Shown one piece after another: positions 18,272-45,682 of a DNA stretch of 64,000 nt (positions are counted from its first letter, which is position 1; each line of letters opens with the position of its first letter). Source of the DNA: an uncultured virus (IMG/VR IMGVR_UViG_3300020447_000005) (Duplodnaviria > Heunggongvirae > Uroviricota > Caudoviricetes); IMG/VR virus record IMGVR_UViG_3300020447_000005. The stretch is one strand, 5' to 3'. The notes under the pieces are model-generated. The model was given only the letters and a program-made list of their open reading frames with translations, was not told where the DNA came from and did no database searches. The position numbers and the translations under genes were made by a program.

Positions 18272-19459
18272 TCAATATCCTAACTCACGTAACTGCAATT
18301 CGCGACGTCTAGTGGCGCTAGGCCCTCCCCACGGAGAACCTGAACCTCCACCAGCCATAGAACCTAATCCAGAAGCACTAAGATACCGTCGTCGATCACT
18401 AATAGTTTTCTGTAGATCAGCAGCAGAAGGACGTTCTCTGGTAAACCAACCAGTCGTTCCTCCGTACTCCCCGCTACTTAATTCACTTCTAAGTTTCTCA
18501 ATCTTTGCCTTCGCCATAGCTTTTTCTACCATACGACGACCGGCTTCGTTACCTTCGTAAGGAGTATCACTCCAAGGCCATCTACCTTCAGGAGCGTCAG
18601 GGTATGTTCCACCCTCATAATCCGCACGTGCTTTTTCTAGCTCTGACCTTTTACCCTCTTGTAATGTTTTGTAACGAGTTCTCGCCTCTGTAAGCTCTCG
18701 TTGTTTTCGAACCGCTGCTGGACCAACTGCTTGAGGAGCGTATGTCTGACGTTTAACCCCAGCGGATGATGTTGTTGTCGTAGGATCACCGTACCCCACC
18801 GGGCTTGCATCAGGATCTCCAAACGGAAGAGAGGCTAAACTCTTTACGGGACTCCCCAGTGCATTAATAGCCGCTTGTGCAGCACCGACATTAGCAGGAT
18901 TAATAGCTTGTCGTTGATAGTCTAAACCACCTCGTCGCATCCCGCCTAGTTCGTCCTTATTGTTCCAACCGCCAAATGGTAATGTGGCCAAATCTTTGGC
19001 ACCCATAACACCAGTACCAAGTGCTCCTGCTCTAGCTAATGTGGATAGTAAACCCTGACCTCGTGTTGCTTTTGGGTCAACCAAATTAGGATGTACAGAA
19101 TGAGCAGCTCGCTGCACCGCTTGCGAAGTTCTGTTTGCACCACGAACAGCAAGAGTTTTTAGCGCGTCGGATGTAGTATTAGGAATAGTTTTGCCAGTAG
19201 GAGCAAAGGACTTCACGTCTAATGCGGGTCGCTTCCACTTTGGCTTCCCTAGTATTGCTTCGCCGACAGGGCCTCTCTTTGCTTTCCATGCACCCTTAGC
19301 CCCTTCCCACGCACCCTTTGCCCCCCTACCAATAGCGCCTTTATACTTGAGTAAATCTCGCCCAACACCAAATAACGTTTGCAATCCGATTGCTTCTTTT
19401 TCTAGCATAGAATGATTATGCCGGGCGGCTTTAGCAGCTAATTTAGAGACATCTGACAT
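18272..19459 (-). CDS. Basic Gly-rich internal virion protein candidate
   Basis: Start revised to MSDVSK (AAGGA upstream). SKLA and EKEA near the N-terminus. No Cys. Confidence 0.55.
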   Translation of the reverse strand: MSDVSKLAAKAARHNHSMLEKEAIGLQTLFGVGRDLLKYKGAIGRGAKGAWEGAKGAWKAKRGPVGEAILGKPKWKRPALDVKSFAPTGKTIPNTTSDALKTLAVRGANRTSQAVQRAAHSVHPNLVDPKATRGQGLLSTLARAGALGTGVMGAKDLATLPFGGWNNKDELGGMRRGGLDYQRQAINPANVGAAQAAINALGSPVKSLASLPFGDPDASPVGYGDPTTTTSSAGVKRQTYAPQAVGPAAVRKQRELTEARTRYKTLQEGKRSELEKARADYEGGTYPDAPEGRWPWSDTPYEGNEAGRRMVEKAMAKAKIEKLRSELSSGEYGGTTGWFTRERPSAADLQKTISDRRRYLSASGLGSMAGGGSGSPWGGPSATRRRELQLRELGY

Positions 19460-19596
19460 ATTGCGCGTCCTTGCACCACTTAATCTACTGTTAATCAATA
19501 GTTGCACGGAATTTCTAGTTTATCTGTTTTATATGCTTTTTTGCAACACCACTGGGTTATTATAACGTCAAACACTATCCTACAAACATCGCAAAG

Positions 19597-22494
19597 TTAC
19601 CGATAAACTCCTTCACGATCTTTTAAAGCTTGTTGATAGGCCTCTTCTTCATGACCGCCCTCAAACCACCCCCAGTTATCTCGATCATAACTGTCTAAAG
19701 AACGTTGAGGCTTGGGAGGCGCATTCTTTGCCCATATCTGAGAGGGATCCCAATTCTCTCGACGAGCTTTCTCTGCTTGATACTCAGGTTCCTCGTGGCC
19801 CCACTCAAACCAATTGGATTTACGATCATAATCTTCAAGAGGACGTTGGTTATGAGCATTATAAAATGCGTCACTCAAGCCGCCCAGCCTAGCCGTTGTA
19901 TTCTTACCTTCTGATAATGCTGTCAATGCGCCTTGTGGATTTAATCCTGCGGCTAAGGCCATTCCGCCTGCTGCCCCGCCATAGCCCTGCACCGCTTGAG
20001 TAAACCTTGGGCCAAAAAACGGAGTATTAAACAAACCGGGAAGCTGCTGCTGTGATTGCACACCTCCCTTTCGATAACCTTGCACACGTTGTGCAGGATT
20101 ATAAGGCTTCGCAACATTGCCAGTTATAAAACTACCGTCACTTAAATTTTGCTTTGCTGCGGGGACATTAACGGGCATCGGTTTTGGAGTATGTGGATTA
20201 GTCACGGGGGGAACACTCCCTGTATTTTGTGCGGGGGGAACTGTGTTCTGTGTATTACCTGAGGTACTTGTCTGAGACGGAGGTGTAATTGTAGCAGGAG
20301 GTGTATACGGATCTGGCTGAGGCGACGTGTCTAGAATATTCGAGGACTGCATCGATTCGGATATTTGATGCACCGGCGACCCAGGACGGGGGCCGGAATG
20401 CCCGTAAGTGTTTTGATAGTTCCTTAACTGTTCGTGTTGCCATTTTCTCTGTTGTAACTGTTTGCTCCGAGAAGGAGACAGGGAAGAATAACGATTCGGA
20501 TCGTAGGTAAAGTCTCCGTAGCTGTGAATACGATTCCACTCAGCATCTTGTGTATTTTGTGCGGGGGGAACTGTGTTCTGTGCTGTCTTAACTTCACCAA
20601 TTTCTTCAACAGGATACCCAGGACTAGGCGGTCTAACGATAGCTCCAGGAGCACGACCAAAATCTACACTACGCGAAATGCTGGGAACAAAACTAGTTCC
20701 ACGTTCTTCGCTTACCGCACCTCGCTGCGCGCCGGTCAATAAACTCTTCTTCAAACCAGAACCATAGAACCGCGTCAACCAATCCGGATCATGCTGTAAG
20801 TTAGACATACCCCGGATCATCTCAGGCTCAAATGGCGGCGGATCATTATGCACCGCAACTTCATCCACCCCAAAAGCATTGAACTCTGCCAACATCGAAG
20901 GTCGTATTTTTGTACCAATTGTATAGTGAAGCACAGGTTGTTCTAAATACTTACCTACTGCTTGTTTTGGCTTAACGCTTCTATGTCCCTCACGTGGCTT
21001 CCACTTATGTTCCAATGTGGAGTAAGGAACAACATCGTCAGGAACGTTGTCGCCGTATTCTTCTGTTAGACGAACATGGTTAATAAGCCCACGTGAGAGT
21101 ATTTCAATATTGCGGCGATGTGCGGAAAGATTAGCTCCTTCCATCGCCTCTTTCAAAGCCTTAACAAAATACTTCCGTCCGTCACCAATACCTTTATACT
21201 GTGTCACCAACGAAGGGTTAGGGAATCCCTCGCTAATAACATCTCCGGCTTCGACTTTATCGCCCTTCTTAACGTGGATATCGTACCCATCAGCAACGTA
21301 ATGCTGCTTATCGTTAACAGTGACGTATTTACCGCCAGCCGGTGCGTCTTCTATACGCTGTACAGTGCCATCTTCTGTTGTGTGAGCTGCACCACCCTTA
21401 AACGTCTTAGGTACTTGTATCAACTGGTTAATATACTTAAAGCCACTAACGGCCTTTTCTTCGCCTGCTACCCCGCCGCTGTGCTTTGCCGACAACTGTC
21501 CCTGACTCAAAGGTTCGCTCAAAGACTGCGCTGCCTGTAATCCAACCTGCGTGCCTCGCCCCGGCAAACGGCCTGTTTCTCGAACACCCACATCTCGTGC
21601 ATAAACGCCACCAGAGGGCGAACCGCCCACAAGCGGCGAACGGATAAGAATCTTATTCTTACCCAGTCGCTTTAAATGCTTTCGCACCTTCGGAGTAATT
21701 ACAGTGTTCTTCTCGTAAGGGCCAGTATCTATAGCTAGTAAAGCTCCCTCACTGTCTGCGTCCTCGGTATCAACCGGCATTCCACGTTTAATGCCACGTT
21801 GACCCTCGTCTGCATAATCCTTATCCGTAATCACTAATCGATGAGCTACTTGATTCAATTGTTTAGCTAAGAAACCCGCGTCTTGTGTGGCGAACTTCGT
21901 CGCTATAATTCCTTTGCGAGCCCCATACGAACCTGCCCAATACTCAGCAGGAGATAACCCCTCGGAATAACTTCTCGTTACTGGGATAGGCAATGGGTCA
22001 TCACGTTGATCGGCGTACAGTAAATCGCTACCCAGTAAACTTGACAAATTCATACGATTGCCACGAGTACCCGACAGAACTTGGAAAGCAAGAGGATTTT
22101 TGTCCTCTAAAGCCTCGGCCATGATTTCTGCCTGCTGAGGGGCCATTTCTGACCCGACTGCACGCACAATGAGTTCATTACGTTTTTTATCCGTAATATC
22201 ATCACGAGATAGAATTGCATCCATCTTGGCACGGACGCGTTCTCGAATACGATGACCGGCTTTAGATCGCTTTAAATGACGTAAACCAAAAGAGAAGCTA
22301 CCGCCCTCTTGCGCACCTTCACGACCTATATTATTTAATGCAAAAGAAATCTCGCGATAATCGTTTGGATACCGAGTAGCAACTTCATGCAAAACTTTTT
22401 TAAGCTCTTTCTTGTCTAATACACGATCGTAGTCCCGGAGATCTTCCGGAAGAGCTTCGTTTACAAAGAGTTGACCCACCGTAGCATTCAGCAT
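19597..22494 (-). CDS. rpoC: DNA-directed RNA polymerase beta'-like subunit, C-terminal half (bridge helix, trigger loop) with a low-complexity C-terminal extension
   Basis: ATVGQ (cf. TTVGR), SGTRG (SGARG), YGARKGIIATKFATQDAGFLAKQL (bridge helix) and AAQSLSEPLSQGQLSAKHSGG (trigger loop), plus RRNIEI (KHIEV). Confidence 0.93.
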   Translation of the reverse strand: MLNATVGQLFVNEALPEDLRDYDRVLDKKELKKVLHEVATRYPNDYREISFALNNIGREGAQEGGSFSFGLRHLKRSKAGHRIRERVRAKMDAILSRDDITDKKRNELIVRAVGSEMAPQQAEIMAEALEDKNPLAFQVLSGTRGNRMNLSSLLGSDLLYADQRDDPLPIPVTRSYSEGLSPAEYWAGSYGARKGIIATKFATQDAGFLAKQLNQVAHRLVITDKDYADEGQRGIKRGMPVDTEDADSEGALLAIDTGPYEKNTVITPKVRKHLKRLGKNKILIRSPLVGGSPSGGVYARDVGVRETGRLPGRGTQVGLQAAQSLSEPLSQGQLSAKHSGGVAGEEKAVSGFKYINQLIQVPKTFKGGAAHTTEDGTVQRIEDAPAGGKYVTVNDKQHYVADGYDIHVKKGDKVEAGDVISEGFPNPSLVTQYKGIGDGRKYFVKALKEAMEGANLSAHRRNIEILSRGLINHVRLTEEYGDNVPDDVVPYSTLEHKWKPREGHRSVKPKQAVGKYLEQPVLHYTIGTKIRPSMLAEFNAFGVDEVAVHNDPPPFEPEMIRGMSNLQHDPDWLTRFYGSGLKKSLLTGAQRGAVSEERGTSFVPSISRSVDFGRAPGAIVRPPSPGYPVEEIGEVKTAQNTVPPAQNTQDAEWNRIHSYGDFTYDPNRYSSLSPSRSKQLQQRKWQHEQLRNYQNTYGHSGPRPGSPVHQISESMQSSNILDTSPQPDPYTPPATITPPSQTSTSGNTQNTVPPAQNTGSVPPVTNPHTPKPMPVNVPAAKQNLSDGSFITGNVAKPYNPAQRVQGYRKGGVQSQQQLPGLFNTPFFGPRFTQAVQGYGGAAGGMALAAGLNPQGALTALSEGKNTTARLGGLSDAFYNAHNQRPLEDYDRKSNWFEWGHEEPEYQAEKARRENWDPSQIWAKNAPPKPQRSLDSYDRDNWGWFEGGHEEEAYQQALKDREGVYR
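20221..20582. repeat. 32-bp exact direct repeat (20221-20252 and 20551-20582) encoding QNTVPPAQNT
   Basis: tgtattttgtgcggggggaactgtgttctgtg occurs twice. Confidence 0.9.
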
Positions 22495-22508
22495 CTTGCT
22501 GCACCGCT

Positions 22509-22524
22509 TAAATTGTACTATTTA
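22509..22524 (-). promoter_or_regulatory. 16-bp TAAATAGTACAATTTA element upstream of the beta'-C gene
   Basis: 15/16 match to the 14934 element. Its TAA is also the stop codon of the upstream gene. Confidence 0.55.
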
Positions 22525-22923
22525 CTCATCGTCGTCATCGTCAACTGTGCCTGTCGGTCCCGAAAACAAGTCCGACAACTCTTCTTGATTTAACTCTTCC
22601 ACTTTGACGTTTTTTCCTCGGGAGGTTGCTTTCTTTTTAGTAGACTTTTTAGCTGCCTTCTTCTTGACGGGCTTCTTTTTTATTTTTGGAGTTTCACTTG
22701 TAGTTTCCTGTTCCGTAGCCTTCTTCTCCACAATAGGAGGAAGAGTTTTCGGTGTCTCCTGAAGAAGTTCGTCTACAATATCCGGTTCTGCGGCGGTTAC
22801 CGGTTCGGGTTTCGGAGAAGGTGGAGCTGCTGCTACTCTAGTCGCAGTACTTCGCTCCATACCCAGTTTTTTTCGCTCCGCTCGACTTCGAGGAATAACT
22901 GAATTAGGGTTGTTAGGATACAT
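22522..22923 (-). CDS. Lys/Pro-rich disordered hypothetical protein (histone H1-like Lys/Ala tract)
   Basis: KIKKKPVKKKAAKKSTKKKATSRGK followed by an acidic tail. Confidence 0.55.
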   Translation of the reverse strand: MYPNNPNSVIPRSRAERKKLGMERSTATRVAAAPPSPKPEPVTAAEPDIVDELLQETPKTLPPIVEKKATEQETTSETPKIKKKPVKKKAAKKSTKKKATSRGKNVKVEELNQEELSDLFSGPTGTVDDDDDE

Positions 22924-22931
22924 ATAAAACC

Positions 22932-23150
22932 TTATAGCTGTTTACAAATTACGGTGATGTCTAAACCAATGCTTTTTAATACTTCATTAAAGTCATCATC
23001 ATCCACATTAGCCAAAACTAAAACTCCTTGAGGTCCCCGCTCCGCTGCGATTTGCACTGGAGCCCCATTATCTCCCTTCACCACTACTTGGGAAGCGTTC
23101 AAAATAATAGGCTCGCTACCTATGCCGTCAGGAATAATTTCAAGCCGCAT
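22932..23150 (-). CDS. Small hypothetical protein
   Basis: 72 aa, coupled to the upstream stop. Confidence 0.55.
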   Translation of the reverse strand: MRLEIIPDGIGSEPIILNASQVVVKGDNGAPVQIAAERGPQGVLVLANVDDDDFNEVLKSIGLDITVICKQL

Positions 23151-23151
23151 A

Positions 23152-23847
23152 TTAAGTCCCTGCGGACATCATTTGCCAGAGCGCAGCAGCTTTATCCGCG
23201 TTTGACTGGTGTTCTGCGACAACGTCTTGTTGAACATCTACAGCACGGCCATTTTCCCAAGAACCCATTTTTTCAGGGGACGCAGGCATTGCCGCACCCA
23301 TCGGGGCAATAGGTTTAATAGCGCTTGCTTCGCCTCCGCCGCCTGCCATAGCACCAGCACCAGCCGAATTACCTTGGGCCATTGCGGTTAAATCCTCGGG
23401 AGTAGCCACCATATCAGCGGCAGGAATATGAATGCCCAAGGCATCAGAGATCTTAGCAAGAATCTTCTTTATCTGCATAATCTCAATATTGACATCAATC
23501 TTGGGCTTAATTTGACCCTCACCACCCATGCCGCCCCCCATGCCACCACCTTGTGCAGCCAAAGCTGCTTGCACAGCTTGGTCAATCATTGGTTGCATGG
23601 CAGCCATGGGGTCCATCGGAGGAGCACCACCCATAGCGGGGTCCATCGGAGGAGCACCGCCCATAGCGGGGTCCATCGGAGGACCACCTGGAGGAGGAGC
23701 GCCGCCCATCATACTAGGATCTCCACCCGTCATAGCAGGGTCGCCTGCTGCTACAAACGCTTGCTTCTCCTCATTTCTCGCATACTTCTGAACATTATCG
23801 AGCGCTAAGCCCACAAGTTCAGGATTAACACTTCCATAATTACCCAT
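23152..23847 (-). CDS. Met/Pro/Gly-rich hypothetical protein with K-x-A motifs
   Basis: AAGGAG SD. QKYA and EKQA motifs, GGAPPMDPAM repeats. Confidence 0.65.
   Translation of the reverse strand: MGNYGSVNPELVGLALDNVQKYARNEEKQAFVAAGDPAMTGGDPSMMGGAPPPGGPPMDPAMGGAPPMDPAMGGAPPMDPMAAMQPMIDQAVQAALAAQGGGMGGGMGGEGQIKPKIDVNIEIMQIKKILAKISDALGIHIPAADMVATPEDLTAMAQGNSAGAGAMAGGGGEASAIKPIAPMGAAMPASPEKMGSWENGRAVDVQQDVVAEHQSNADKAAALWQMMSAGT
23608..23683. repeat. 30-bp tandem repeat (about 2.5 copies) encoding GGAPPMDPAM
   Basis: ggggtccatcggaggagcaccRcccatagc repeated. Confidence 0.85.
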
Positions 23848-23878
23848 AGCTAGTTACTCCTTTAACTCTAGCAAGTCA

Positions 23879-26800
23879 TTACTTTTCTAGTACCTGAACT
23901 CGATCTGTTAAAGACAAATCTCCCCGATCATATGCTGTTCGAACGTCTGACATGGAACGGAATATCTTTCGCGATTTTTCACTTTTTCGCTTTGTCGCGT
24001 GCCATAAACCTCCAACATACTCGTTAGAGGGTGCATGTACCACCGACTTAAAATCGGAAGGGCTTAGTAAATTACGGCTCGGCAGTAAACGTTCAAAAGA
24101 TTCTTTTCTCGCCTCCTCTGTCGTAGGGACGTGATAATTCATCGCGTCTCCGTCAAAATCTGCATTAAAGCCCCCCACTATTAAAGGTGATACCTGTAAA
24201 GTATTACCTTTAGTCAATTGAGGTTTAAACGCCATGATGCCAAATTTATGTAACACAGGGGCACGATTAATGATAACAGGTCGGTGCTCCATTTCCTCTA
24301 CCAATGCATTACGCGCTAATTCAGACCTGTCCTTGATGTTCTGCATCGCTTGAGTAATTGGCATTCCTTTTCGTCGCAATCGTCGAACAACAAACTTCTG
24401 ATATACGTCAAAAGCTTTATCTTCAGGAAGACCTACCGAATCCATGTCTAAATTAGGGTTCGGCGATATGACAGCTCGACCTACATTATCCACCGTGCTG
24501 CCAATAAGTTTTCTTTGTACAGTACCAAACTTAGGACTACTGCCAAAAACCTCTTTTAGAATACCGCGAACTTGTTTATCTCGGGATTTTTGACTAATTG
24601 GATCGCCAAGGCCGGTAACCGCTTTAAAAGCGTTATAAACTGCCAATCTTTCGTCGCCAACAGCGTCCCCTACCGATTTCCGCATATCCTCTAAATTGCT
24701 ATTAGCCTCAAACAATTCTTTGTATAAATAGTTAGCGTCATTAACTAACGGCATATCATCGCCCATCGTACTCACAGGGCGAAACATAGGCGGCAAAACA
24801 GGAACTCGCTTTAACATCCAGTCAGAAGGATGAATACCTAACTTCTTGGCGCTTTTGAGATACCCTAACTTGCGGATAGCAGTATCGCGTTCAGTCCGGT
24901 TTCCGTTTTCAATTAATGAACGGGACTCAGCCAATGCTTTATTTAGATCTAGAGATGTTAACGCTTTATGCACTGCTTTAGGACCAGTACCATACCCAGG
25001 CAATTCATTCACGCCTGCTATAACATCCTCAAACCCTTTTTTAGTTAAACCCAACGTTCTACGAATAGGTTCTTCCATTACTGGGTTAGGCATTGGCTCA
25101 GCGAGTTTAATGGCTGACCATTGATTACCATTATGTCCGCCAGTTAAAGCAGGATCAAATAAACCTCCTGCTACCGGGCGTAACCCCTCGTTCCAATTAA
25201 CGCCGCCAGAATTCTTTAACTCACGTGACCCTACTAAAGTATCAACGTCATTATTCGTTAACGCCATAATGTGTGTTTGCGTGCCCGATCGCTGTACGTT
25301 TACACCCGCAGCTTTTAACTGACTTACAAACTTTTTATACACCATTGGAACTTTAGGATCTTTCGGGTTATACCCCGACATAAACTGCAACCAATAGTCT
25401 TCATTGCGTTGGCCGCGAATAGCGCCTACATCGCGTAACGTCTCAGTAGCTCCATGAGATAGAAGAGCGTTAGTATCTAATAGAGCAACTCGCTTAGAGC
25501 CAGTTTCGCCGCCCTTAGCCGGAGTATCCTCCATTGAGTATGCGCCGCCTCCGCGAGCTTGTCCTTTTGATTCTGCTGTGTGATGTAGCTTCATAAAGAA
25601 ACGATTGCCTGTCGCAATGTCCTTTATTTTCTTATCCCGAGTAGGGTCGTAAACAGCATCAAGATCGGACATACCTTCACGACGTAACTCGTCATACACC
25701 CATTGAGACATATCGCGGCTGCTATCAAAATCTTGGATTTTAATAGGCGAGCCTCGCTTAGCCGCTATTTTGCCTAAATACAACTCAGCCATCTGAGCTG
25801 GATTAGTACGGCTAATTACTCCGAGTGGATTGAGGAGAACCTCATAGGGCTTACCATCCGTGTCGTGCGGCATCTGGTCGTCGGAGATGACGTCAGCAAT
25901 GACGCCTTTATCTCCGTATCTACCAGAGAGCTTGTCACCGACTTGCATGGAGCTGACGGTTTTGGTAACGACAACCGGCCCCTTCTTCCCCAGAACAACG
26001 TCGGTAACAACCCCGGTATCGTGATGATCCCATAAGATACTTGCGTCTGCATATCCGGACTGTCCTTTCTTATGCACTTTATGTTTAGATCCTTCGCGAC
26101 GTCTTATACCAAGTATAAGCGGATCTCCGTGCTTCACAACAGTTCCGGGTTTTATGACCCCATTATCGCCAAACCGAGACAACTCTTCTTTATTATACTT
26201 CCCAGGAAATAAACTAATGTAGGAATTCTTTCCTGATTTTGTCTTTTTATCAAATTCAAGATCGTATTGATACATGTGTTCGGAAGACATGCGATTTGCA
26301 AAGCCTTCTGATATGACAATTGCGTCTTCAAAATTCTTTCCCTGCCAAGCCAAATAAGCTACACGAGCATTTTTACCTAATGCTGTTGTTCCGCCTTTAT
26401 CCGTAAAATTGGATCTGCTAAGAAGCTGTCCTTTCTTAAACGGCATCCCTGCTTCAACAGTAGGAGTTTGGTGCAAAAATGTTTTTCTGTTGAAAGGAAA
26501 ATTATTATACAACTCTAAGTCTTCCTTTGTACCGTCATCATATCGAACTTTAATGCTATCGTCAGAAATGCTTAATACTTCGCCTCCCGACTTGGCATGC
26601 ATACTACCCATTTTAGAGCTGTACTCTTCTTCGTAACTACGTTTACCTTCAGTTCCTGGTATAGCCGATTGAACTAAAGGAGCTTCAGGATCAATCAAAG
26701 GTAAAGCTTGTGTAGACATACGACTCGCCATGACAAGTCGTTGTCCTTTCATCATCCCTTTGAGTGGGACAATGTTAGCCAACGGACTAAGTGCATCCTC

Positions 26801-28303
26801 AAAAGAAGGTAGCACTAAATCAATATCTTTTTTCTTAGCCCACCCCATCTTGCCCGCCTGCATAACTGCAACCCGCTTCCCAGCTTTATCCATACTCTCC
26901 GGAAAAGCGACAGTTAAATCAGACACGTCCTGAGGTGTTCGCCAAACTTTTTTAGATGTCCTAGGGTCAATGAACTGTGTGTATATTTTGCCGTCTTTAC
27001 CTTTTTGAGTACTCCGCGACATATACAGATCAACGCCAGTTCTAAACGACTCAGGAGTACGTAGCGGATCAATGTAACCCATGTGACTAGGCTGCACGTC
27101 GCGTGCTTCGTCAGGGATCGCATCAAGGGTGGGGATGCCTCCCTCACCAAGGCGACTGACCGAATAAAGCTTGTCATAGATCTCAGCAGGATTAATTTCC
27201 TCTAACGGCTGCCCTAAACCAGAAGACAACAACGTTGCCTCTATTTGTGATTTCAAAGCTGATGACGGCATACCCGATAAATTGCCCTTATTAGCCGCTT
27301 TCCACAACAAACCTCTTCTTATGCCGCCATAATCTTTAGCCACACGCTCTGAAAACAAATCCTCAGGACCCAGGAACTTTTGATAAGGAAGTGCGTCCCG
27401 ATTATCTACGTCTGCCTCGCCTTTGGATACATTCACAAGTTTCTTAGTGATATCCAATACTGCATCTAAAGTTAACCCTTTGTAAGGTTTCCCCAGTGTC
27501 CTACTTGTCACTTCAGGATCAAGTGTCATGTTTTTAAACTTATGCACTATCGCCTTACGAGCATTATTATCGTGCTCCTCTAAATCTTTTTCACTTAAAA
27601 ATTTCTCTTGTAACTTTGTGTGTGCGGACGCTTCGTCCTGAGGAAAGTTCGCCGCGTAAATGGCATCTCCCCACGTCTCTTTAAGTTGCTTGGGAGTGGC
27701 CCCCATTGTTTTGACGAGAGGCATAAGCGGTATCTTGGCCTGACCAGCTCGGAGATAGAAGATGCCTGTTTCTGGGTTAAGATAATAGCGGTGCGAAAGA
27801 CCTTTCCCAGGCATAATGTTGGCATGCGCTTCGATTTCTCCGTTATCCCGAACTCTAGTAAACACCCCCGGCCTTAGTCGTTGCTGATTGCGTAACGTAT
27901 ACTCACTACCTTTATGAATATATGTCCCACGCTGTGTAAGATGCGGCACAGTCATTAAAACAGATTTCTTACTGTCAACAACGTTGCCCGTTTCATTATC
28001 GGACAGCTCCCACGTGCCACGAAGACGACGACCTCTAGTCTCTCCGCTTAGCACTGCTGCCTTTTGATCTTTTAAAGAAAGCTTATCGGGGTCTTGATAA
28101 TGAACGTCACGTAACGCTAACGAATAATTAGCGTTCGTAACCGGTTCTAAACCTTGAACCGCCTCTTGTACGCGAGTATAGATATTACGTCGCGCCGCAG
28201 TTGTGTCGCCCACCCCTCGGCGTTCTTCCTTAGAGGCAACTGGCTGCAACGGAGAAAGTAACGACTTAGGCGACGAGTCTAAAATATTCATAGACATCGC
28301 CAT
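23879..28303 (-). CDS. rpoB: DNA-directed RNA polymerase: beta subunit fused to the N-terminal half of beta' (carries the catalytic NADFDGD)
   Basis: Beta motifs RDVQPSHMGYIDPLRTPE, NFEDAI, GDKLSGRYGDKGV, LNPLGVISRTN and MKLHH. Beta' motifs VPVLPPMFRP, NRAPVLH and FNADFDGDAM (NADFDGD at 24146-24166). Confidence 0.95.
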   Translation of the reverse strand: MAMSMNILDSSPKSLLSPLQPVASKEERRGVGDTTAARRNIYTRVQEAVQGLEPVTNANYSLALRDVHYQDPDKLSLKDQKAAVLSGETRGRRLRGTWELSDNETGNVVDSKKSVLMTVPHLTQRGTYIHKGSEYTLRNQQRLRPGVFTRVRDNGEIEAHANIMPGKGLSHRYYLNPETGIFYLRAGQAKIPLMPLVKTMGATPKQLKETWGDAIYAANFPQDEASAHTKLQEKFLSEKDLEEHDNNARKAIVHKFKNMTLDPEVTSRTLGKPYKGLTLDAVLDITKKLVNVSKGEADVDNRDALPYQKFLGPEDLFSERVAKDYGGIRRGLLWKAANKGNLSGMPSSALKSQIEATLLSSGLGQPLEEINPAEIYDKLYSVSRLGEGGIPTLDAIPDEARDVQPSHMGYIDPLRTPESFRTGVDLYMSRSTQKGKDGKIYTQFIDPRTSKKVWRTPQDVSDLTVAFPESMDKAGKRVAVMQAGKMGWAKKKDIDLVLPSFEDALSPLANIVPLKGMMKGQRLVMASRMSTQALPLIDPEAPLVQSAIPGTEGKRSYEEEYSSKMGSMHAKSGGEVLSISDDSIKVRYDDGTKEDLELYNNFPFNRKTFLHQTPTVEAGMPFKKGQLLSRSNFTDKGGTTALGKNARVAYLAWQGKNFEDAIVISEGFANRMSSEHMYQYDLEFDKKTKSGKNSYISLFPGKYNKEELSRFGDNGVIKPGTVVKHGDPLILGIRRREGSKHKVHKKGQSGYADASILWDHHDTGVVTDVVLGKKGPVVVTKTVSSMQVGDKLSGRYGDKGVIADVISDDQMPHDTDGKPYEVLLNPLGVISRTNPAQMAELYLGKIAAKRGSPIKIQDFDSSRDMSQWVYDELRREGMSDLDAVYDPTRDKKIKDIATGNRFFMKLHHTAESKGQARGGGAYSMEDTPAKGGETGSKRVALLDTNALLSHGATETLRDVGAIRGQRNEDYWLQFMSGYNPKDPKVPMVYKKFVSQLKAAGVNVQRSGTQTHIMALTNNDVDTLVGSRELKNSGGVNWNEGLRPVAGGLFDPALTGGHNGNQWSAIKLAEPMPNPVMEEPIRRTLGLTKKGFEDVIAGVNELPGYGTGPKAVHKALTSLDLNKALAESRSLIENGNRTERDTAIRKLGYLKSAKKLGIHPSDWMLKRVPVLPPMFRPVSTMGDDMPLVNDANYLYKELFEANSNLEDMRKSVGDAVGDERLAVYNAFKAVTGLGDPISQKSRDKQVRGILKEVFGSSPKFGTVQRKLIGSTVDNVGRAVISPNPNLDMDSVGLPEDKAFDVYQKFVVRRLRRKGMPITQAMQNIKDRSELARNALVEEMEHRPVIINRAPVLHKFGIMAFKPQLTKGNTLQVSPLIVGGFNADFDGDAMNYHVPTTEEARKESFERLLPSRNLLSPSDFKSVVHAPSNEYVGGLWHATKRKSEKSRKIFRSMSDVRTAYDRGDLSLTDRVQVLEK

Positions 28304-28307
28304 TCAA

Positions 28308-30002
28308 TTACTCCTCCTCCTCATCGATAGGTGTAGGAACTGCGTACAGTTCAGCTGGACGCGACTGCTGTTGTTTTAGTGCACGACTGCGTTGAGCTTT
28401 CTCTAAGATTTTACCGCGACTACCTCTATCCGCTAACCCTTTGACAAGCAGATAACCTAAAATAGAGCTGGGAATGGCGTAAGTCGCGTAAGCCCCTAAA
28501 GCACGCCCTCGTGTGTCAGGGCTTACGATACTATCTAAATCAAGAGCTTCTTTATTCATCTTGTTATATAGCTCGTCTAATGCCACGCCTAACTCGGAAT
28601 CGCTTCCTCGTTTGTACTGCGAGACTAGCGCCTCTTGAAATTCATTGCGAGACTCATCCACTTCATCGTCAATCTCTTGACGACGTCTTTTGTCTAATAT
28701 GTGATCAATTAACTTCCATCCCCCGTAGCCTCCAAGAGCGCCAGCGCCAAGCATAGAAGGCATGTACCACCACAAACCGGGCTTAGAAGTCGGCCCAGGT
28801 TTAGGCATATCTATCGCTTGTTTATCAGCGCTATATTTTCGGAATGAGAACCCGTTGTTATCTTCCCCTTCTTGACGAGCCTGCTCAGCTCTTTGCTCCA
28901 AAACTTCTATTTCCTCGTCTTCTTTGCTTGCCCGTTCTCCCGGCGACTTACCGAACAACGCCTTAGTTGCTTTATTACCCAGGACACCGCCTCCAATACC
29001 GCCAGCAAGTAAACCAGCAAGTGCCCCAATACCCTGCGACCTAGAACTAGACTTAGTTCCCCTTAATTTCGCAATTAAATTAGCTACCCCAACACCGCCC
29101 CCAGCACCCAACAAGCTTCCCACCGTAGCGCCAGCTCCAGTACCAAGACCGCGCGTCCCGTGATGCAGCATATTTGGAAGAACTTCGCCCTTAGGGGCTG
29201 TCCCTGCGCCGTACCCCGCACCAATACCGCCGCCTAGTAACATTGCCGGAGTAAAGGCTTGCTTGTCACGAGCTGCCTTAAAGGGCTGATTCAACCTTAC
29301 TTTCGACCGATCGTAAGCCCGCTGCGCACTATCTACCCCTTGTTGCCCCGCAGCACGTGTTTGATTTCCCGCGTTCCACGCTTGACCGGCTTGCTGCTTG
29401 CCCTGTCTATGACCGCCACGTGCAAAACCACTTACATAACCTCCTGCTGCCGTAACTGGCGCAACCATATCCTGACCGAGTCCTTTCCACCAGGACCCAG
29501 TATTTGCCATTTGCTTATCTCCCAAAGTCTGTTGCGCAGCCTCCCTCCTGTCATAATTTTTACCGTACTGCGATGCAGCCTGTTGCGCTCCTGCTGTACC
29601 GTGCGGCACCAAATTTTTCGTTCGAGCCCCCATTTGTCCAAATGTCTTAGTTGGACCTGAAGTCCCGCCACCAAACGTTTTATTGTATACACCCTTGAAA
29701 AACTCAGCTTCCTTCTCTTCTCCGTTTTCGTCTTTAAAAGAAGGACGATAAGGGACAGGAAGAGGAGCAACACCAGGGCGAGTGCTTAATTTTTTACTGC
29801 TTCGTGTCAACAGATTCCACAATCCTTGCCCGCCACGAGCCGTGCCTGCTACGCCAGCACCCAACAAAGCGGTATTTAAAATGTCTCGCATAGCTTCGCT
29901 ACGCAATTGCTTTTGAAGCTGTGTTTGCATATCAGCAATACTTGACATGCCTTTCTTTTCTTGAACTTTTGCAATAACATGCTTTGCTTTTTTGCTGTCC
30001 AT
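28308..30002 (-). CDS. Glycine-zipper internal virion polyprotein candidate
   Basis: Several Gly-rich hydrophobic segments separated by EKEA, DKQA, DKQA and NKEA. No Cys. Confidence 0.6.
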   Translation of the reverse strand: MDSKKAKHVIAKVQEKKGMSSIADMQTQLQKQLRSEAMRDILNTALLGAGVAGTARGGQGLWNLLTRSSKKLSTRPGVAPLPVPYRPSFKDENGEEKEAEFFKGVYNKTFGGGTSGPTKTFGQMGARTKNLVPHGTAGAQQAASQYGKNYDRREAAQQTLGDKQMANTGSWWKGLGQDMVAPVTAAGGYVSGFARGGHRQGKQQAGQAWNAGNQTRAAGQQGVDSAQRAYDRSKVRLNQPFKAARDKQAFTPAMLLGGGIGAGYGAGTAPKGEVLPNMLHHGTRGLGTGAGATVGSLLGAGGGVGVANLIAKLRGTKSSSRSQGIGALAGLLAGGIGGGVLGNKATKALFGKSPGERASKEDEEIEVLEQRAEQARQEGEDNNGFSFRKYSADKQAIDMPKPGPTSKPGLWWYMPSMLGAGALGGYGGWKLIDHILDKRRRQEIDDEVDESRNEFQEALVSQYKRGSDSELGVALDELYNKMNKEALDLDSIVSPDTRGRALGAYATYAIPSSILGYLLVKGLADRGSRGKILEKAQRSRALKQQQSRPAELYAVPTPIDEEEE

Positions 30003-30008
30003 AGCTAT

Positions 30009-30380
30009 TTAGCTCCTAGGCAATGTTGCTTTCGTTGGCTGACCGTCTTCAAGGAAATACTCCAACCATTCCATGTAAACGTGATGATGTTTATCGTCAT
30101 CTTCTCGCCAACGTTCGATGAAAACAAGGTGAAACCATCCGTTGGCCACCCCGTCCATCACTTCTAAATACTGTTTGTTCTGTTTATCGTCGCCCGTGTA
30201 GAACATTGAGTTCTTGGGGTCTGCAACTCGAACTAACCTATCCTCAAACTCCTCGTCACGAAGGAGTGGTGCCTGTGTACCACGAAACGGTAATCCATCT
30301 AAATCTGCTCGTCCCCAAAAAAGATTACCACGTCCATTACCTTCTGTTTTGTTAACAAACTTAATCAAGTTATTTGGCAT
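30009..30380 (-). CDS. Hypothetical protein
   Basis: 123 aa with a GGGGA SD. Confidence 0.65.
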   Translation of the reverse strand: MPNNLIKFVNKTEGNGRGNLFWGRADLDGLPFRGTQAPLLRDEEFEDRLVRVADPKNSMFYTGDDKQNKQYLEVMDGVANGWFHLVFIERWREDDDKHHHVYMEWLEYFLEDGQPTKATLPRS

Positions 30381-33345: not shown

Positions 33346-35325
33346 TTAGATTGAGCATTTGTCGCCAGTACACGCATACTGTTGACTCAGCTCGGTCATG
33401 TCCTCTGTTTCATACGTTACTAATTGAGACCAGTCAATCACAGGAAACTCTGCTGCGCGAACTGTGTACTCATCTTCTGTAATAGTCTCATACGGTGCAA
33501 GGGGGTAAACACCACCAAAGTAAGGCAAAAAACTAAGGCCTCCTACCTCATCCCAATGCGAGTAAACCCACTCACCTACAACATCCCATTCGTCGTCCTT
33601 AACATAAATTGTTACAGAAGGATTATGCTCTGTCCAGCTGCGCTTATACCGTAACCACAACTCTAATTGACCTAAAGCTGTCTGCTCTGCCAGCGTAACC
33701 CCGTTCTCCGGGCTTTGCATTGGAAATTCTAATACTAACAATCCGCTATTGTCATAATCATCATGACATGGAACGCCAGCATCCTTCAACATACGTGCTA
33801 CAGGATTTGTAGCGCTAGTCCGCATCCTACGAATATAGTGTTTTCCGTGATGTCCTTTAAAACCAGCCGCTGTATCAAAGAAAACACTGCTATCACCAGA
33901 AGGTTTAATACACGTTAAAGCAGCAGAACAGTTAATATCTAAAATTTCTGCCCAATAAATGTTTGTCTCTTTTACAATATCCCGTAAATACGTAAGAACT
34001 TCCTCGCTGCTTTCCCCAGTCAGCATGGGATGATCAAGAAAACCCAATAGATCAACGCCAAGTAACCTTTCTTCTTCACTGTTCTTCTGCCACTCAGGAC
34101 TTAGATATTCAAACTTTGTCATAGTTGCCTGTAACGTCCCCCAAATAGTCGCCAATCGTACTTTGTTAACAATAGCCTCTAACGAATCGTCTGGACGAAC
34201 TACTGCAATAGACAAGTTACAGAACTGTTTGTGGCGAAGAACAATTTCTCCGCAAGGGTTAGTCCCAAAGACATGCCCTTTAGTTATACGCCTAGAAGGG
34301 AACTGCTTCTCTAGGCTACCGCGATTAAATATACCTCGCTCCCCGCTACCACTGGCATGAATGGCTTTCCATTCAGCTTGCCAGACCTCTCGCTCCGGCT
34401 TGTCGCGATAGACTGCCGAATTATTCGCTTGGTTACGCTGCGGATTTGTCTCCCAAAACTCACCTACCTTAGAGTTTTGCATATCGATGTCATTTAAATC
34501 AGAAAGAGAAATACCGCTTGCTCTACGCACACCACCCATCTGCACAATACGATGAGCATAACAATTGATGTCGTGCAAATCTAAGCTCGTTAAACAAGTA
34601 TCCTGACGACTTAAAATACGATGACGAGTGAATCGCAATAAATCTCGAAGAGGACCGGGACCAGAAGACCGACCACCCTTTATTTTAAGCGGCGTGCCCT
34701 CAGGACGTATTAAACTGAAATCAAATTCAATATCGCCACCGGCAAGCCACGTCTCCAACCCAAGCTTGTACGCGTCACACCACCCCTCAGTCGTATCCGA
34801 AATTTCGTGGTATGCAATTTCTTTGTTATGTTGTTGTTGCACACGTGGCCAATGTTTAACACTTTCCTCGTATTCAACGGAGAACCCTACACCAGTCCCC
34901 TGCATAAGAATGTATAACTCTTCTGCCATATCTTGCGGACCACGCAAAAATTGAAAGGCACAGTTATATACGCCAACGTGACAACGATCTAAAGCGGGAC
35001 CGCTCATCTGAACGCAACGCATCGAAGGACTTGCTTCTAGATTTAAAAGGCCATCAGCTAGCTGAGACCAAGTCTTGCTTGAAATCTTAAATGCGTTGGC
35101 TTCGGCATGAGTACGAAAAAAAGAAATGACCCGCTCTACTGTTTCGGGCCAAAGTTCTCTGCGTTGCTTTTCAGGTATGTATCTTGCAAATTTGTCAAAT
35201 GCTTGAAATAGTTGTGCATGACCGTTAGGTCCCGAAAAATGTTTTTGACTACTGTCAAACTGCTGTTTTAGCTCGTTGTTAAATTCATGGAGAGACACCG
35301 ATCCTTGCACAACCTTAGGCTGCAT
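33346..35325 (-). CDS. nrdJ: Class II (adenosylcobalamin-dependent) ribonucleotide reductase, monomeric RTPR-like
   Basis: YNC, GTGVGFS, GGVRRAS, GTNPCGEI, CNLS and IKPSG motifs with a C-terminal CTGDKC. No beta-subunit gene nearby. Confidence 0.9.
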   Translation of the reverse strand: MQPKVVQGSVSLHEFNNELKQQFDSSQKHFSGPNGHAQLFQAFDKFARYIPEKQRRELWPETVERVISFFRTHAEANAFKISSKTWSQLADGLLNLEASPSMRCVQMSGPALDRCHVGVYNCAFQFLRGPQDMAEELYILMQGTGVGFSVEYEESVKHWPRVQQQHNKEIAYHEISDTTEGWCDAYKLGLETWLAGGDIEFDFSLIRPEGTPLKIKGGRSSGPGPLRDLLRFTRHRILSRQDTCLTSLDLHDINCYAHRIVQMGGVRRASGISLSDLNDIDMQNSKVGEFWETNPQRNQANNSAVYRDKPEREVWQAEWKAIHASGSGERGIFNRGSLEKQFPSRRITKGHVFGTNPCGEIVLRHKQFCNLSIAVVRPDDSLEAIVNKVRLATIWGTLQATMTKFEYLSPEWQKNSEEERLLGVDLLGFLDHPMLTGESSEEVLTYLRDIVKETNIYWAEILDINCSAALTCIKPSGDSSVFFDTAAGFKGHHGKHYIRRMRTSATNPVARMLKDAGVPCHDDYDNSGLLVLEFPMQSPENGVTLAEQTALGQLELWLRYKRSWTEHNPSVTIYVKDDEWDVVGEWVYSHWDEVGGLSFLPYFGGVYPLAPYETITEDEYTVRAAEFPVIDWSQLVTYETEDMTELSQQYACTGDKCSI

Positions 35326-35838: not shown

Positions 35839-36419
35839 CCAGATCTCCAAACAGGACCACCCGCAAAAAATCGACCGTGGAAATCCGAACAAAACGGATC
35901 ATCGCTGTCCTCTACGGCTAACAATAAATGTGGCGCTGCTTTATTAACATAGTCCTTAGCGGATAGTAAACACTCACGACGATGTTTTCCTAAAATTAAA
36001 ACACAATTAAAATAACCTTGCGGAGCAGGTGGTTGAACGTAATGCTCCAGACGTTCTTCATACCACACGTCTGCATCCGTTTGCGATCGAATCCAGTTTT
36101 CATCGTCTGCTCGTGAAATAACGCCGTGTAATTCAAAAGAAACACTACGTTTAAATTGAGATAAAACTTGATTGACGTGCACAATATCTCCTGCACGTCC
36201 CCACACAAGACACCGCATACCATCAGATTGGGCGGCAAACCGAATGAATCCAGATAGAAGGCGGTGCAATTGCCGAATAACAACGCCCGGATGAGAAGGA
36301 TAGACGTAAAAATACGTCGAAGAACATTCCTGCAAAGAATCTACTGTCTGAAGCCTAAGATCTTCAAAAGTTCTTCTAGGGTATTGCCCTAAATTAATAT
36401 CAGGCATTTCCATGTACAA
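35835..36419 (-). CDS. Hypothetical protein, possibly a degenerate methyltransferase-like fold
   Basis: 194 aa. FNCVLILG.H...C.....YV resembles the C-part of SAM-dependent methyltransferases. Confidence 0.5.
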   Translation of the reverse strand: MYMEMPDINLGQYPRRTFEDLRLQTVDSLQECSSTYFYVYPSHPGVVIRQLHRLLSGFIRFAAQSDGMRCLVWGRAGDIVHVNQVLSQFKRSVSFELHGVISRADDENWIRSQTDADVWYEERLEHYVQPPAPQGYFNCVLILGKHRRECLLSAKDYVNKAAPHLLLAVEDSDDPFCSDFHGRFFAGGPVWRSG

Positions 36420-36918: not shown

Positions 36919-36966
36919 AATTAAACAACCTCCACGCAACAATGTAGAAATTTTCTCACAACGCTA

Positions 36967-40689: not shown

Positions 40690-40694
40690 GTAGT

Positions 40695-42176: not shown

Positions 42177-42199
42177 ATACCTTATAAGGTATACTCACC

Positions 42200-42805: not shown

Positions 42806-42811
42806 GTAACG

Positions 42812-42840
42812 AAGCTAGCACACCCTACAACAACCGTCAA
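42812..42840 (-). promoter_or_regulatory. Sigma70-type promoter driving the ncRNA
   Basis: TTGACG-17 nt-TAGCTT with an extended -10 TG. Confidence 0.7.
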
Positions 42841-42870
42841 TACACCGAGAATAGTTCGTATTTTACGAAC

Positions 42871-43170: not shown

Positions 43171-43228
43171 TACGTTTCTCCTTTAGTAATGAAGCTTAGA
43201 ATTATGAAGTCCATTTCACTAAATACTC

Positions 43229-43351: not shown

Positions 43352-43394
43352 TGAATACTTCTCCCGCTACAAATTTCTAGTTACCAACCGTCTA

Positions 43395-45680: not shown

Positions 45681-45682
45681 CT

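What the first reader, a model, noticed from the sequence alone, without database searches (positions are those of the whole stretch)
19597..28303. Both RNAP chains (2439 aa) are cysteine-free and both beta' zinc sites are erased
Seen: reading the two translations I find no Cys. The N-terminal beta' zinc finger (GLFC...C.C...C..C...MGHIEL) is collapsed to GGLFDPALTGGHNGNQWSAIKL (about 25103-25168). The second site (RS..SC....GVC..CYG) reads RSPLVGGSPSGGVYARDVG (about 21587-21645). Known: the injected coliphage N4 virion RNAP lacks cysteines, attributed to passage through the oxidising periplasm. Inference: this RNAP is ejected unfolded into the host and refolds without zinc. Neck proteins at 2164-4176 are Cys-rich, so this is not a genome-wide bias.
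Basis: partly seen in the sequence, partly recalled or inferred. Interest (0 to 1): 0.8.

Follow-up and report, generated by a model that had tools for sequence, protein, structure and literature searches.

The report
Cysteine-free, zinc-site-free phage RNA polymerase
An uncultured large phage encodes a bacterial-type RNA polymerase in two chains that has no cysteine and neither of the usual zinc sites, a rule its whole clade keeps, most likely because the enzyme rides in the virus particle into the host.

Summary
Two minus-strand genes encode beta fused to the front half of beta-prime (23879-28303, 1474 aa) and the back half of beta-prime plus a tail (19597-22494, 965 aa). Neither has a cysteine, against 1.23% in the window's ORFs.

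The first zinc ribbon is a 32-residue deletion. The four ligands of the second site read Y, G, Y, D.

This is selection on the mature protein, not base bias:
- TGY occurs 182 times out of frame and never in frame.
- In 150 cluster representatives of the beta-prime C-half, the core holds 4 Cys in 94,175 residues. Inteins and other large inserts in the same genes hold 487 in 22,864.

The related Salmonella phage Arash clade also lacks the first site, but all 120 homologues listed keep the second, usually as their only cysteines.

The injection reading is only partly supported. Packaging was measured only in Arash, at 25-29% identity, and ejection was never measured. phiKZ's injected polymerase keeps cysteines and the second zinc site.

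The clade (mReC) and cysteine suppression in N4-like ejection proteins are published. I found no paper on a cysteine-free cellular-type polymerase. This scan has already reported the same trait on at least eight other genomes.

The parts
23879..28303 (-). Gene for beta fused to the N-terminal half of beta-prime (1474 aa, 0 Cys)
   Evidence: Pfam Rpb2_6 E=3.4e-51, Rpb2_3, Rpb1_2 E=5.6e-27, weak Rpb1_1. PDB beta chains match to 3.8e-63 and beta-prime chains to 3.8e-48. The alignment shows the end of beta running straight into the start of beta-prime.
25103..25168 (-). Collapsed first zinc site (residues 1046-1067): the zinc ribbon is deleted
   Evidence: There is a 32-residue gap against Salmonella RpoC where C70/C72/85/88 lie. 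Arash gp206 and Vibrio phage D69 share the same gap. A strict 22-residue pattern matches 101 of 120 homologues, and 8 of the 19 misses show near variants of the same length.
24146..24166 (-). Catalytic NADFDGD magnesium loop (residues 1380-1386), intact
   Evidence: Translation and coordinates. It aligns to NADFDGD of Salmonella RpoC.
19597..22494 (-). Gene for the C-terminal half of beta-prime plus a C-terminal tail (965 aa, 0 Cys)
   Evidence: Pfam Rpb1_5 E=1.1e-17. PDB beta-prime chains match to 5.3e-38 over residues 2-493. Bridge helix and trigger-loop motifs align.
21586..21642 (-). Replacement of the second zinc site (residues 285-303): G290, Y298 and D301 stand where C888, C895 and C898 stand in Salmonella RpoC
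   Evidence: Alignment. In 150 cluster representatives D301 is kept in 150/150, Y298 in 132 (F 8, L 6, W 3, K 1) and G290 in 116 (S 20). No Cys stands in any of these columns.
21814..21816 (-). Y227, at the position of the fourth Zn2 ligand (C814)
   Evidence: Alignment. The column is variable or gapped in relatives.
19600..20634 (-). Low-complexity tail of the beta-prime C-half (residues 621-965), P/G/S/Q-rich and Cys-free
   Evidence: Composition and internal repeats. Total protein length varies from 600 to 1492 aa among homologues of 63% identity or more. Tails of the 150 representatives hold 29 Cys in 68,134 aa.
28308..30002 (-). Upstream neighbour, 564 aa, Cys-free, Gly/Ala-rich with glycine-zipper-like stretches; function unknown
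   Evidence: Sequence. No Pfam, PHROG or Atlas lead.
22522..23847 (-). Three small ORFs between the two polymerase genes (231 aa 0 Cys, 72 aa 1 Cys, 133 aa 0 Cys)
   Evidence: and sequences. Homologues of the 231-aa ORF occur in 17 of 65 related loci and hold 2 Cys in 4004 aa.
18272..19507 (-). Downstream neighbour, 411 aa, Cys-free, low-complexity; function unknown
   Evidence: No family or Atlas lead.

Best explanation
This is the transcription enzyme of an uncultured large tailed phage of the published mReC lineage (homologues sit on contigs of up to about 235 kb). It is a bacterial-type multisubunit RNA polymerase made of two chains, beta::beta-prime-N and beta-prime-C, with an intact catalytic centre.

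Shown here:
- Its whole clade is under strong purifying selection against cysteine in the mature protein.
- The N-terminal zinc ribbon of beta-prime was deleted in the common ancestor shared with the Arash and Vibrio phage D69 lineage.
- In this clade alone, the four cysteines of the second structural zinc site were replaced by a conserved cysteine-free motif (G...Y..D). The enzyme therefore cannot bind zinc at either canonical site.

Inferred:
- The pressure arises because the polymerase is packed into the capsid and delivered into the host with the DNA to start early transcription, as proposed for N4-like virion polymerases.
- Thiols and a metal-dependent fold are liabilities during storage in an oxidising medium, during passage through the tail and envelope, and during unassisted refolding.
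For: Identity and active site.

Cys-free state of the window's chains and the chance estimate.

Family-wide rule:
- 93 of 120 listed beta::beta-prime-N homologues (55-100% identity) have 0 Cys. The 12 with 6 or more Cys are all among the 13 proteins over 1600 aa that carry large inserts, and their Cys lie in those inserts.
- 113 of 119 beta-prime-C homologues have 0 Cys, with 8 Cys in 112,925 aa.
- Among 150 representatives of 50%-identity clusters, the core is Cys-free in 146 (4 Cys in 94,175 aa). In contrast, 95 large inserts in 62 of the same proteins hold 487 Cys in 22,864 aa, or 2.1%.
- All 15 canonical intein junctions examined have Ser (11) or Thr (4) as the residue left in the mature chain, never Cys.

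Stepwise loss:
- Arash gp216 and D69_264 have exactly four Cys, and these align to C814/C888/C895/C898.
- All 120 listed Arash-clade homologues keep that pattern, and 113 have no other Cys.

Link to the particle:
- Arash Gp206 and Gp216 are the first and fifth most-detected proteins of purified virions. Sigma Gp10 (0/234 Cys) and Gp217 (0/472) are also present.
- Arash non-virion proteins carry normal Cys: terminase 13/532, second sigma gp196 3/345.
- The genes sit among Cys-poor ORFs (1 Cys in 3973 aa over 18272-30380).
- In 43 related loci with full flanks, Cys is 1.2-2.1% from 2 to 10 kb upstream but 0.05-0.85% from 1 to 9 kb downstream.

Precedent: cysteine suppression in the ejection operon of N4-like phages (PMC11445570).
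Against: - No proteome, transcription or infection data exist for this clade. The only packaging data come from a relative at 25-29% identity, whose 116-protein preparation includes evident non-structural enzymes.
- phiKZ's virion polymerase, which the literature treats as delivered with the DNA, keeps 16 Cys in 2614 aa and the four Zn2 cysteines in gp80.
- The Arash clade keeps Zn2. Delivery therefore demands neither zero Cys nor loss of zinc.
- The host is unknown. Relatives lie in metagenome bins labelled with five different bacterial taxa, so a periplasm is not established.
- No sigma factor, gp217-like helicase or portal homologue was detected in the window by tblastn, Pfam or PHROGs.
- The 867-aa structural neighbour has normal Cys in relatives (402 in 42,805 aa), so position in the module alone does not predict Cys loss.
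- AR9's non-virion polymerase also lacks the first zinc domain (PMC7618050, passage read), so that loss is not specific to packaged enzymes.
Confidence: 0.6

Rival explanations
1. The polymerase is packaged, but the pressure against cysteine comes from long residence in particles in oxic water, where thiols oxidise and zinc is lost. It does not come from passage through the periplasm or from unfolding during ejection.
For: In Arash, proteins that are not ejected are also Cys-free or Cys-poor: capsid protein 0/307, major tail protein 0/283, and the structural module gp221-gp243 at 34 Cys in 8608 aa. The window's capsid candidate at 6405-7343 has 0/312. Homologues come from sources that include Tara Oceans records.
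Against: Other abundant Arash virion proteins keep cysteines (gp8 9/1165, portal 4/579, gp13 3/528). So does the 867-aa structural neighbour in relatives of the window (0.94%). General virion residence therefore does not drive Cys to zero the way it is driven in the polymerase.
Confidence: 0.2
2. The enzyme is not packaged. The lack of Cys and zinc is an adaptation of an intracellular phage enzyme, for instance to zinc-poor waters, or to host or rival factors that attack thiols or zinc sites.
For: Loss of Zn2 is confined to this clade, which includes Tara Oceans records, whereas the sewage-derived Arash keeps it. AR9's non-virion polymerase also lacks the first zinc domain.
Against: Zinc economy would remove eight ligands, not every cysteine in 2439 residues. 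Other enzymes in the same window keep normal Cys (RNR 13/659, glycosyltransferases). The Arash clade removes all Cys except the zinc ligands, so the pressure is on thiols, not on zinc. Arash homologues are found in particles.
Confidence: 0.12
3. There is no selection. Cysteine was lost by drift or by compositional bias in a fast-evolving viral gene.
For: Cysteine is a rare residue. The Zn1 loss could be a single old deletion that was then inherited.
Against: The contrast between core and inserts within the same genes is about 500-fold (0.004% against 2.1%). TGY counts are 182 out of frame and 0 in frame. The rule holds in 146 of 150 clusters that differ by 50% or more in sequence. D301 is invariant in 150/150.
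Confidence: 0.02

Closest known systems
RNA polymerase of Salmonella phage Arash (Gp206 + Gp216; OQ632216, PMC10585845) and of Vibrio phages D69/D148/D181
   Same: Same two-chain layout, beta::beta-prime-N of about 1500 aa plus beta-prime-C. The tblastn match covers 97% of the first chain. The deletion of the first zinc ribbon is the same. Outside the zinc ligands these proteins are nearly Cys-free: gp206 1/1525 and D69_261 2/1527. Gene order is the same, with a gp218-like structural gene downstream.
   Different: Identity is only 29-31% for the first chain and 25-29% for the second. They keep all four Zn2 cysteines, as do all 120 listed Arash-clade homologues. They lack the long C-terminal tail. 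Packaging was measured there, not here.
mReC lineage (Weinheimer and Aylward 2020, PMC7481178)
   Same: Metagenomic tailed phages that encode beta and beta-prime of a deep-branching multisubunit polymerase, some over 200 kb, from aquatic and other habitats (abstract and section 6 read). The window fits that description.
   Different: The main text of that paper has no occurrence of cysteine, zinc, virion or sigma. Its supplements were not looked at. Membership of the paper's own 97 contigs was not tested here.
Virion RNA polymerases of N4-like phages (N4 gp50, DEV gp71; PMC11445570)
   Same: Cys suppression is conserved across the family and is attributed to delivery through the envelope. Neighbouring ejection proteins are also Cys-free.
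   Different: The enzyme is unrelated: a single-chain T7-like polymerase of about 3400-3500 aa, in a short-tailed phage. No homology was found here, and the window's chains match only cellular-type families.
phiKZ virion polymerase (gp178, gp149, gp180, gp80) and non-virion polymerase (gp55, gp68, gp71-74, gp123)
   Same: A multisubunit cellular-type polymerase carried in a jumbo-phage head. The virion set has about half the Cys of the non-virion set (0.61% against 1.16%) and no four-Cys cluster at the start of gp178. The non-virion gp55 keeps that cluster.
   Different: Each subunit is split into more pieces, and no sigma factor is known for the group (PMC7824862). The virion enzyme still has 16 Cys and keeps Zn2 in gp80. 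No sequence match to the window's chains appeared in the phage search.
Bacterial RNA polymerase core (for example Salmonella RpoB/RpoC)
   Same: These are the best structural relatives by sequence. The catalytic loop, bridge helix and trigger loop are conserved.
   Different: Salmonella has 7 + 15 Cys and both zinc sites. Here beta and beta-prime are fused, beta-prime is split near residue 560 of RpoC, and both zinc sites are absent.

Membership tests
Cellular-type multisubunit RNA polymerase (beta / beta-prime) | Beta catalytic double-psi barrel region | tested here: met
   Pfam RNA_pol_Rpb2_6 E=3.4e-51 over residues 602-924. PDB beta chains match to 3.8e-63.
Cellular-type multisubunit RNA polymerase (beta / beta-prime) | Beta-prime NADFDGD magnesium-binding loop | tested here: met
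   NADFDGD at residues 1380-1386, aligned to RpoC.
Cellular-type multisubunit RNA polymerase (beta / beta-prime) | Bridge helix and trigger loop in the C-terminal half of beta-prime | tested here: met
   Pfam Rpb1_5 E=1.1e-17. Both motifs align.
Cellular-type multisubunit RNA polymerase (beta / beta-prime) | N-terminal zinc-binding domain of beta-prime, called a shared feature of all such enzymes in PMC7618050 | tested here: not met
   A 32-residue deletion removes C70/C72/C85/C88, and the chain holds no Cys.
Bacterial beta-prime | Second structural zinc site (C814, C888, C895, C898 in Salmonella numbering) | tested here: not met
   Y227, G290, Y298 and D301 occupy these positions.
Arash-type / mReC two-chain phage polymerase | Beta fused to beta-prime-N, with beta-prime-C as a separate gene downstream in the same orientation | tested here: met
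   The same split point and junction are seen in Arash and D69.
Arash-type / mReC two-chain phage polymerase | Four Zn2 cysteines as the only cysteines of beta-prime-C | tested here: not met
   All 120 Arash-clade homologues keep them. None of the 150 representatives nor the 119 close homologues of the window's chain has a Cys in these columns.
Virion-packaged, host-delivered RNA polymerase | Protein present in purified particles | not testable with these tools
   There is only the proteome of Arash, at 25-29% identity.
Virion-packaged, host-delivered RNA polymerase | Early transcription independent of new protein synthesis and of the host polymerase | not testable with these tools
   No cultured member of this clade turned up in the phage collection: the best tblastn hits were below 31% identity.
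Cysteine-suppressed ejection proteins (as in Schitoviridae) | Cysteine frequency near zero across the family, against a normal proteome background | tested here: met
   The core of 150 representatives has 0.004% Cys and 119 close homologues have 0.007%. The window's ORFs have 1.23%.

The most novel reading that the evidence does not exclude
This clade holds a naturally zinc-independent and thiol-free cellular-type RNA polymerase. A conserved G...Y..D motif takes over the structural role of the tetra-cysteine Zn2 site. The two chains can then be stored in the capsid, threaded through the tail and reassembled in the host without metal, redox chemistry or chaperones. Bacterial enzymes (two zinc sites), Arash-type enzymes (only the four Zn2 cysteines left) and this type (none) would be successive steps of one adaptation to delivery.
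Probability: 0.35. Interest if true: 0.8.

Novelty: new variant of a known kind. Interest (0 to 1): 0.68.

Why it matters
Both zinc sites of beta-prime are treated as near-universal features of bacterial RNA polymerase. A paper read here calls the N-terminal zinc domain a shared feature of all multisubunit polymerases.

A large natural clade that dispenses with both sites, and with every cysteine in about 2400 residues, shows that the fold does not need them. It also offers a conserved replacement motif that can be examined structurally.

If the packaging reading holds, the cysteine-suppression rule known for single-chain N4-type virion polymerases extends to cellular-type enzymes. That would give a sequence-only marker for proteins that phages carry into cells.

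A natural cysteine-free polymerase would also be a convenient scaffold for site-specific labelling.

The intein contrast, about 2% Cys in the parts that are spliced out against about 0.004% in the parts that remain, is an unusually clean internal control for selection at the level of the mature protein.

Tried and rejected
- Whole-genome look-up: none is held for this window.
- Earlier notes by place: none.
- ESM Atlas on the 564-aa and 411-aa neighbours: only unnamed viral clusters at 0.83, below the level that means anything.
- Pfam and PHROGs on the neighbours: nothing, apart from a weak capsid hit at 6405-7343.
- tblastn of 43 Arash and D69 proteins against the window: only gp206, gp216, gp218/D69_266 (weak) and D69_270 matched. 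No homologue of sigma gp10 or gp196, helicase gp217 or portal gp204 appeared at E <= 1e-3. I therefore cannot say the window holds a sigma factor or a portal gene.
- AlphaFold2 on the beta-prime-C core with 39 sequences: mean pLDDT 66.8. The Zn2-replacement stretch falls from 84 (residues 281-290) to 59 (291-300) and about 35 (301-350). This says nothing about how the motif packs, and I ran no fold search on the model.
- Host inference: a scan of genome contigs with the protein found nothing. With the alignment it found 6 loci, five in bins labelled Gemmataceae, Nanopelagicales, Alphaproteobacteria, Planctomycetales and Moraxellaceae and one labelled only uncultured bacterium. These are probably mis-binned phage contigs and give no consistent host.
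- tRNA scan: no tRNA genes.
- MAFFT of 123 sequences mis-gapped the C895 and C898 columns. I replaced it with pairwise alignments.
- Literature: searches, and term look-ups in PMC7481178, PMC7618050, PMC7824862 and PMC9209446, found no description of a cysteine-free or Zn2-free multisubunit polymerase. Subscription journals and supplements were not covered.
- Complex prediction, sequencing-run tools and the metagenome scan were not used.
Full report
**What is there**

The window is a gene-dense stretch read almost wholly on the minus strand, with GC of 43-48%. Two ORFs carry the finding.

P0001 (23879-28303, 1474 aa) matches Pfam Rpb2_6 (E=3.4e-51), Rpb2_3, Rpb1_2 (5.6e-27) and, weakly, Rpb1_1. 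P0002 (19597-22494, 965 aa) matches Rpb1_5 (1.1e-17). The nearest solved structures are bacterial beta chains (to 3.8e-63) and beta-prime chains (to 3.8e-48 for P0001 and 5.3e-38 for P0002).

I aligned both chains to Salmonella RpoB and RpoC taken from an annotated contig. The end of beta runs directly into the start of beta-prime. The first chain ends a little after NADFDGD, near RpoC residue 560, and the second chain carries on from there through the bridge helix and trigger loop.

So the enzyme is beta::beta-prime-N plus beta-prime-C, with the catalytic loop intact at residues 1380-1386. Residues 621-965 of the second chain are a P/G/S/Q-rich tail that matches nothing.

**The observation**

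- Both chains have 0 Cys.
- The second is residues 285-303, which is 21586-21642.
- In the alignment, the first zinc ribbon (C70, C72, C85, C88) is a 32-residue gap.
- The second site is substituted in place: C814 to Y227, C888 to G290, C895 to Y298, C898 to D301.
- The window's ORFs hold 251 Cys in 20,398 aa, which puts the chance of none in 2439 residues at about 8e-14.
- TGT/TGC occur 113 and 69 times out of frame in the two genes and never in frame, so this is not avoidance at the nucleotide level.
- The Cys-free state reaches beyond the polymerase. The eight ORFs between 18272 and 30380 hold 1 Cys in 3973 aa. Several of them are Gly/Ala/Met-rich and of low complexity.

**It is a family rule, and it acts on the mature protein**

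- Of the 120 best homologues of the first chain (55-100% identity), 93 have no Cys.
- The 12 with six or more Cys are all among the 13 proteins longer than 1600 aa. Those 13 carry 18 large inserts, many with intein or homing-endonuclease Pfam families, and nearly all of their Cys lie in the inserts.
- Fifteen of the 18 inserts have canonical intein ends. The residue left in the mature chain is Ser (11) or Thr (4), never Cys. This may simply follow from the host protein having no Cys to home into.
- The other three inserts sit inside NADFDG|D and have unusual ends.
- Of 119 homologues of the second chain (63-100% identity), 113 have no Cys, with 8 Cys in 112,925 aa.
- An exhaustive profile-free search gave 4319 hits, 1059 of them at E <= 1e-30.
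- Among the best 150 cluster representatives (48-84% identity), the aligned core is Cys-free in 146, with 4 Cys in 94,175 aa. In contrast, 95 inserts of 60 aa or more in 62 of the same proteins hold 487 Cys in 22,864 aa. The C-terminal tails hold 29 Cys in 68,134 aa.
- The core-to-insert contrast is about 500-fold, within the same genes and the same genomes.
- At the former Zn2 site, D301 is invariant (150/150), Y298 is Y in 132 (F 8, L 6, W 3, K 1) and G290 is G in 116 (S 20). Position 227 is free to vary.

**The wider lineage**

The nearest records in the phage collection are Salmonella phage Arash and Vibrio phages D181, D148 and D69, at 29-31% identity for the first chain and 25-29% for the second. 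They share the fused-and-split layout and the same zinc-ribbon deletion.

Arash gp206 has 1 Cys in 1525 aa and D69_261 has 2 in 1527. Their beta-prime-C chains have exactly four Cys, and these align to the four Zn2 ligands.

Searching with Arash gp216 gave 120 homologues at 51-100% identity. All 120 keep that four-Cys pattern, 113 have no other Cys, and only 7 Cys outside that four-Cys pattern occur in 72,993 residues.

The pressure against cysteine is therefore older than the split between the two clades. Zn2 was the last holdout, and the window's clade replaced it.

**Link to the virion**

The Arash paper reports Gp206 as the most-detected protein of purified particles (3516 spectra, 128 unique peptides). 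Gp216 (1210 spectra), Gp217 (1148), Gp218 (1149) and sigma Gp10 (467) follow. The authors caution that abundant enzymes may be carried over, and 116 proteins were detected in all, including primase and ligase (PMC10585845, section 16 read).

In my counts, the well-detected Arash proteins are Cys-free or nearly so:

| Arash protein | Cys / aa |
|---|---|
| Gp4 | 0/1097 |
| Gp10 | 0/234 |
| Gp217 | 0/472 |
| Gp218 | 1/615 |
| Gp229 | 2/2548 |
| capsid protein | 0/307 |

Non-virion or weakly detected proteins are not depleted:

| Arash protein | Cys / aa |
|---|---|
| terminase | 13/532 |
| sigma gp196 | 3/345 |
| gp197 | 9/537 |

Some solid virion proteins keep Cys all the same: gp8 9/1165 and portal 4/579.

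In 43 related IMG/VR loci with full 10-kb flanks, Cys is 1.2-2.1% from 2 to 10 kb upstream of the polymerase. It is 0.29% in the ORF just upstream and 0.05-0.85% from 1 to 9 kb downstream.

Homologues of the 231-aa ORF that lies between the two polymerase genes hold 2 Cys in 4004 aa. Those of the 867-aa gp218-like neighbour hold a normal 0.94%.

**What speaks against a simple injection story**

phiKZ is the textbook jumbo phage with a packaged multisubunit polymerase. Its non-virion set has 33 Cys in 2850 aa, with both zinc sites. Its virion set has 16 Cys in 2614 aa, with no four-Cys cluster at the start of gp178 but with all four Zn2 cysteines in gp80.

Together with the Arash clade, this shows that delivery is compatible with some cysteines and with a zinc site. 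The first zinc domain is also missing from AR9's non-virion enzyme (PMC7618050, passage read).

The host is unknown, so a periplasm is assumed and not shown. The window holds no detectable sigma factor, gp217-like helicase or portal homologue. It covers only 64 kb of a genome of about 197 kb (longest contig with P0002).

**Reading**

- Shown: a catalytically intact cellular-type polymerase whose clade excludes cysteine from the mature protein and has lost both canonical zinc sites.
- Inferred, at about 0.6: this is because the enzyme is packed into particles and delivered with the DNA.
- I cannot tell whether the liability is oxidation in the particle, passage through the envelope, or refolding without metal.
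- A purely intracellular explanation such as zinc economy or thiol-targeting defence is less likely, because all thiols are removed and the Arash clade removes every Cys except the zinc ligands.

**What is known**

- The lineage was described as mReC (PMC7481178). Its main text never mentions cysteine, zinc, virion or sigma, and I did not look at its supplements.
- Cysteine suppression and the periplasm idea are in print for N4-like phages (PMC11445570).
- A 2021 survey of jumbo phages lists multisubunit polymerases only in the phiKZ-like group, and says no sigma factor is found there (PMC7824862, passages read).
- My searches found no paper on a cysteine-free or Zn2-free multisubunit polymerase.

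Within this scan, the same trait has already been reported on at least eight other genomes, with the same closest relative and the same reading. Those notes gave me the lead to the mReC paper. The counts above are my own.

**Verdict**

This is a new variant of a known kind, with interest of 0.68.

Noticed in passing
window 19600-20634 (residues 621-965 of the beta-prime C-half): A P/G/S/Q-rich Cys-free tail with two internal repeat pairs. Among homologues of 63% identity or more, total protein length runs from 600 to 1492 aa, so the tail is gained, lost or swapped quickly.
   Followed up: partly
window 28308-30002, 23152-23847, 22522-22923, 18272-19507: Four Cys-free, Gly/Ala/Met-rich, low-complexity ORFs flank the polymerase genes, some with glycine-zipper-like stretches. 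They have no family, no Atlas lead and, except the 231-aa one, no BLAST homologue in 65 related loci. They could be internal head or ejection proteins, but that is a guess.
   Followed up: partly
homologues P0095, P0103, P0111 (inserts after window-equivalent residue 1385 of the first chain): Three large inserts sit inside the catalytic NADFDG|D loop, and their ends do not look like canonical intein junctions. Splicing there would have to restore the third aspartate.
   Followed up: no
homologues P0109, P0114, P0118, P0122 (window-equivalent residues about 1100-1110 of the first chain): A small subclade carries a pair of cysteines 4 to 8 residues apart in an otherwise Cys-free chain, at a loop where the window reads GYGTGPKAV.
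   Followed up: no
window 38978-51312 and 58962-63951: A long run of sugar-nucleotide and glycosyltransferase genes: GT2 family, dTDP-sugar epimerase, dehydratases, a DegT-type aminotransferase, a formyltransferase and a sulfotransferase-GT2-TPR fusion. This is unusual in extent for a phage.
   Followed up: no
window 51603-57878: A 2091-aa protein with five Laminin_G_3 repeats and five Kre9/KNH-like Ig repeats, probably a fibre or decoration protein (16 Cys).
   Followed up: no
window 36400-36942 and 33346-35325: A SET-domain ORF (Pfam E=1.7e-07) and a ribonucleotide reductase with a weak Pfam match (E=2.8e-05, below the curated cut-off) to the insertion domain of B12-dependent reductases (PHROG E=1.6e-127).
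   Followed up: no
loci L074-L079: Relatives of the polymerase lie on contigs of 4.6 to 199 kb inside metagenome bins. Five are labelled with different bacterial taxa and one only as uncultured bacterium. They are probably phage contigs binned by mistake.
   Followed up: no
L070-L073 (phiKZ): The phiKZ virion polymerase has about half the Cys of the non-virion one (0.61% against 1.16%). The internal head proteins hold 15 Cys in 4727 aa (0.32%), a milder form of the same trend.
   Followed up: partly
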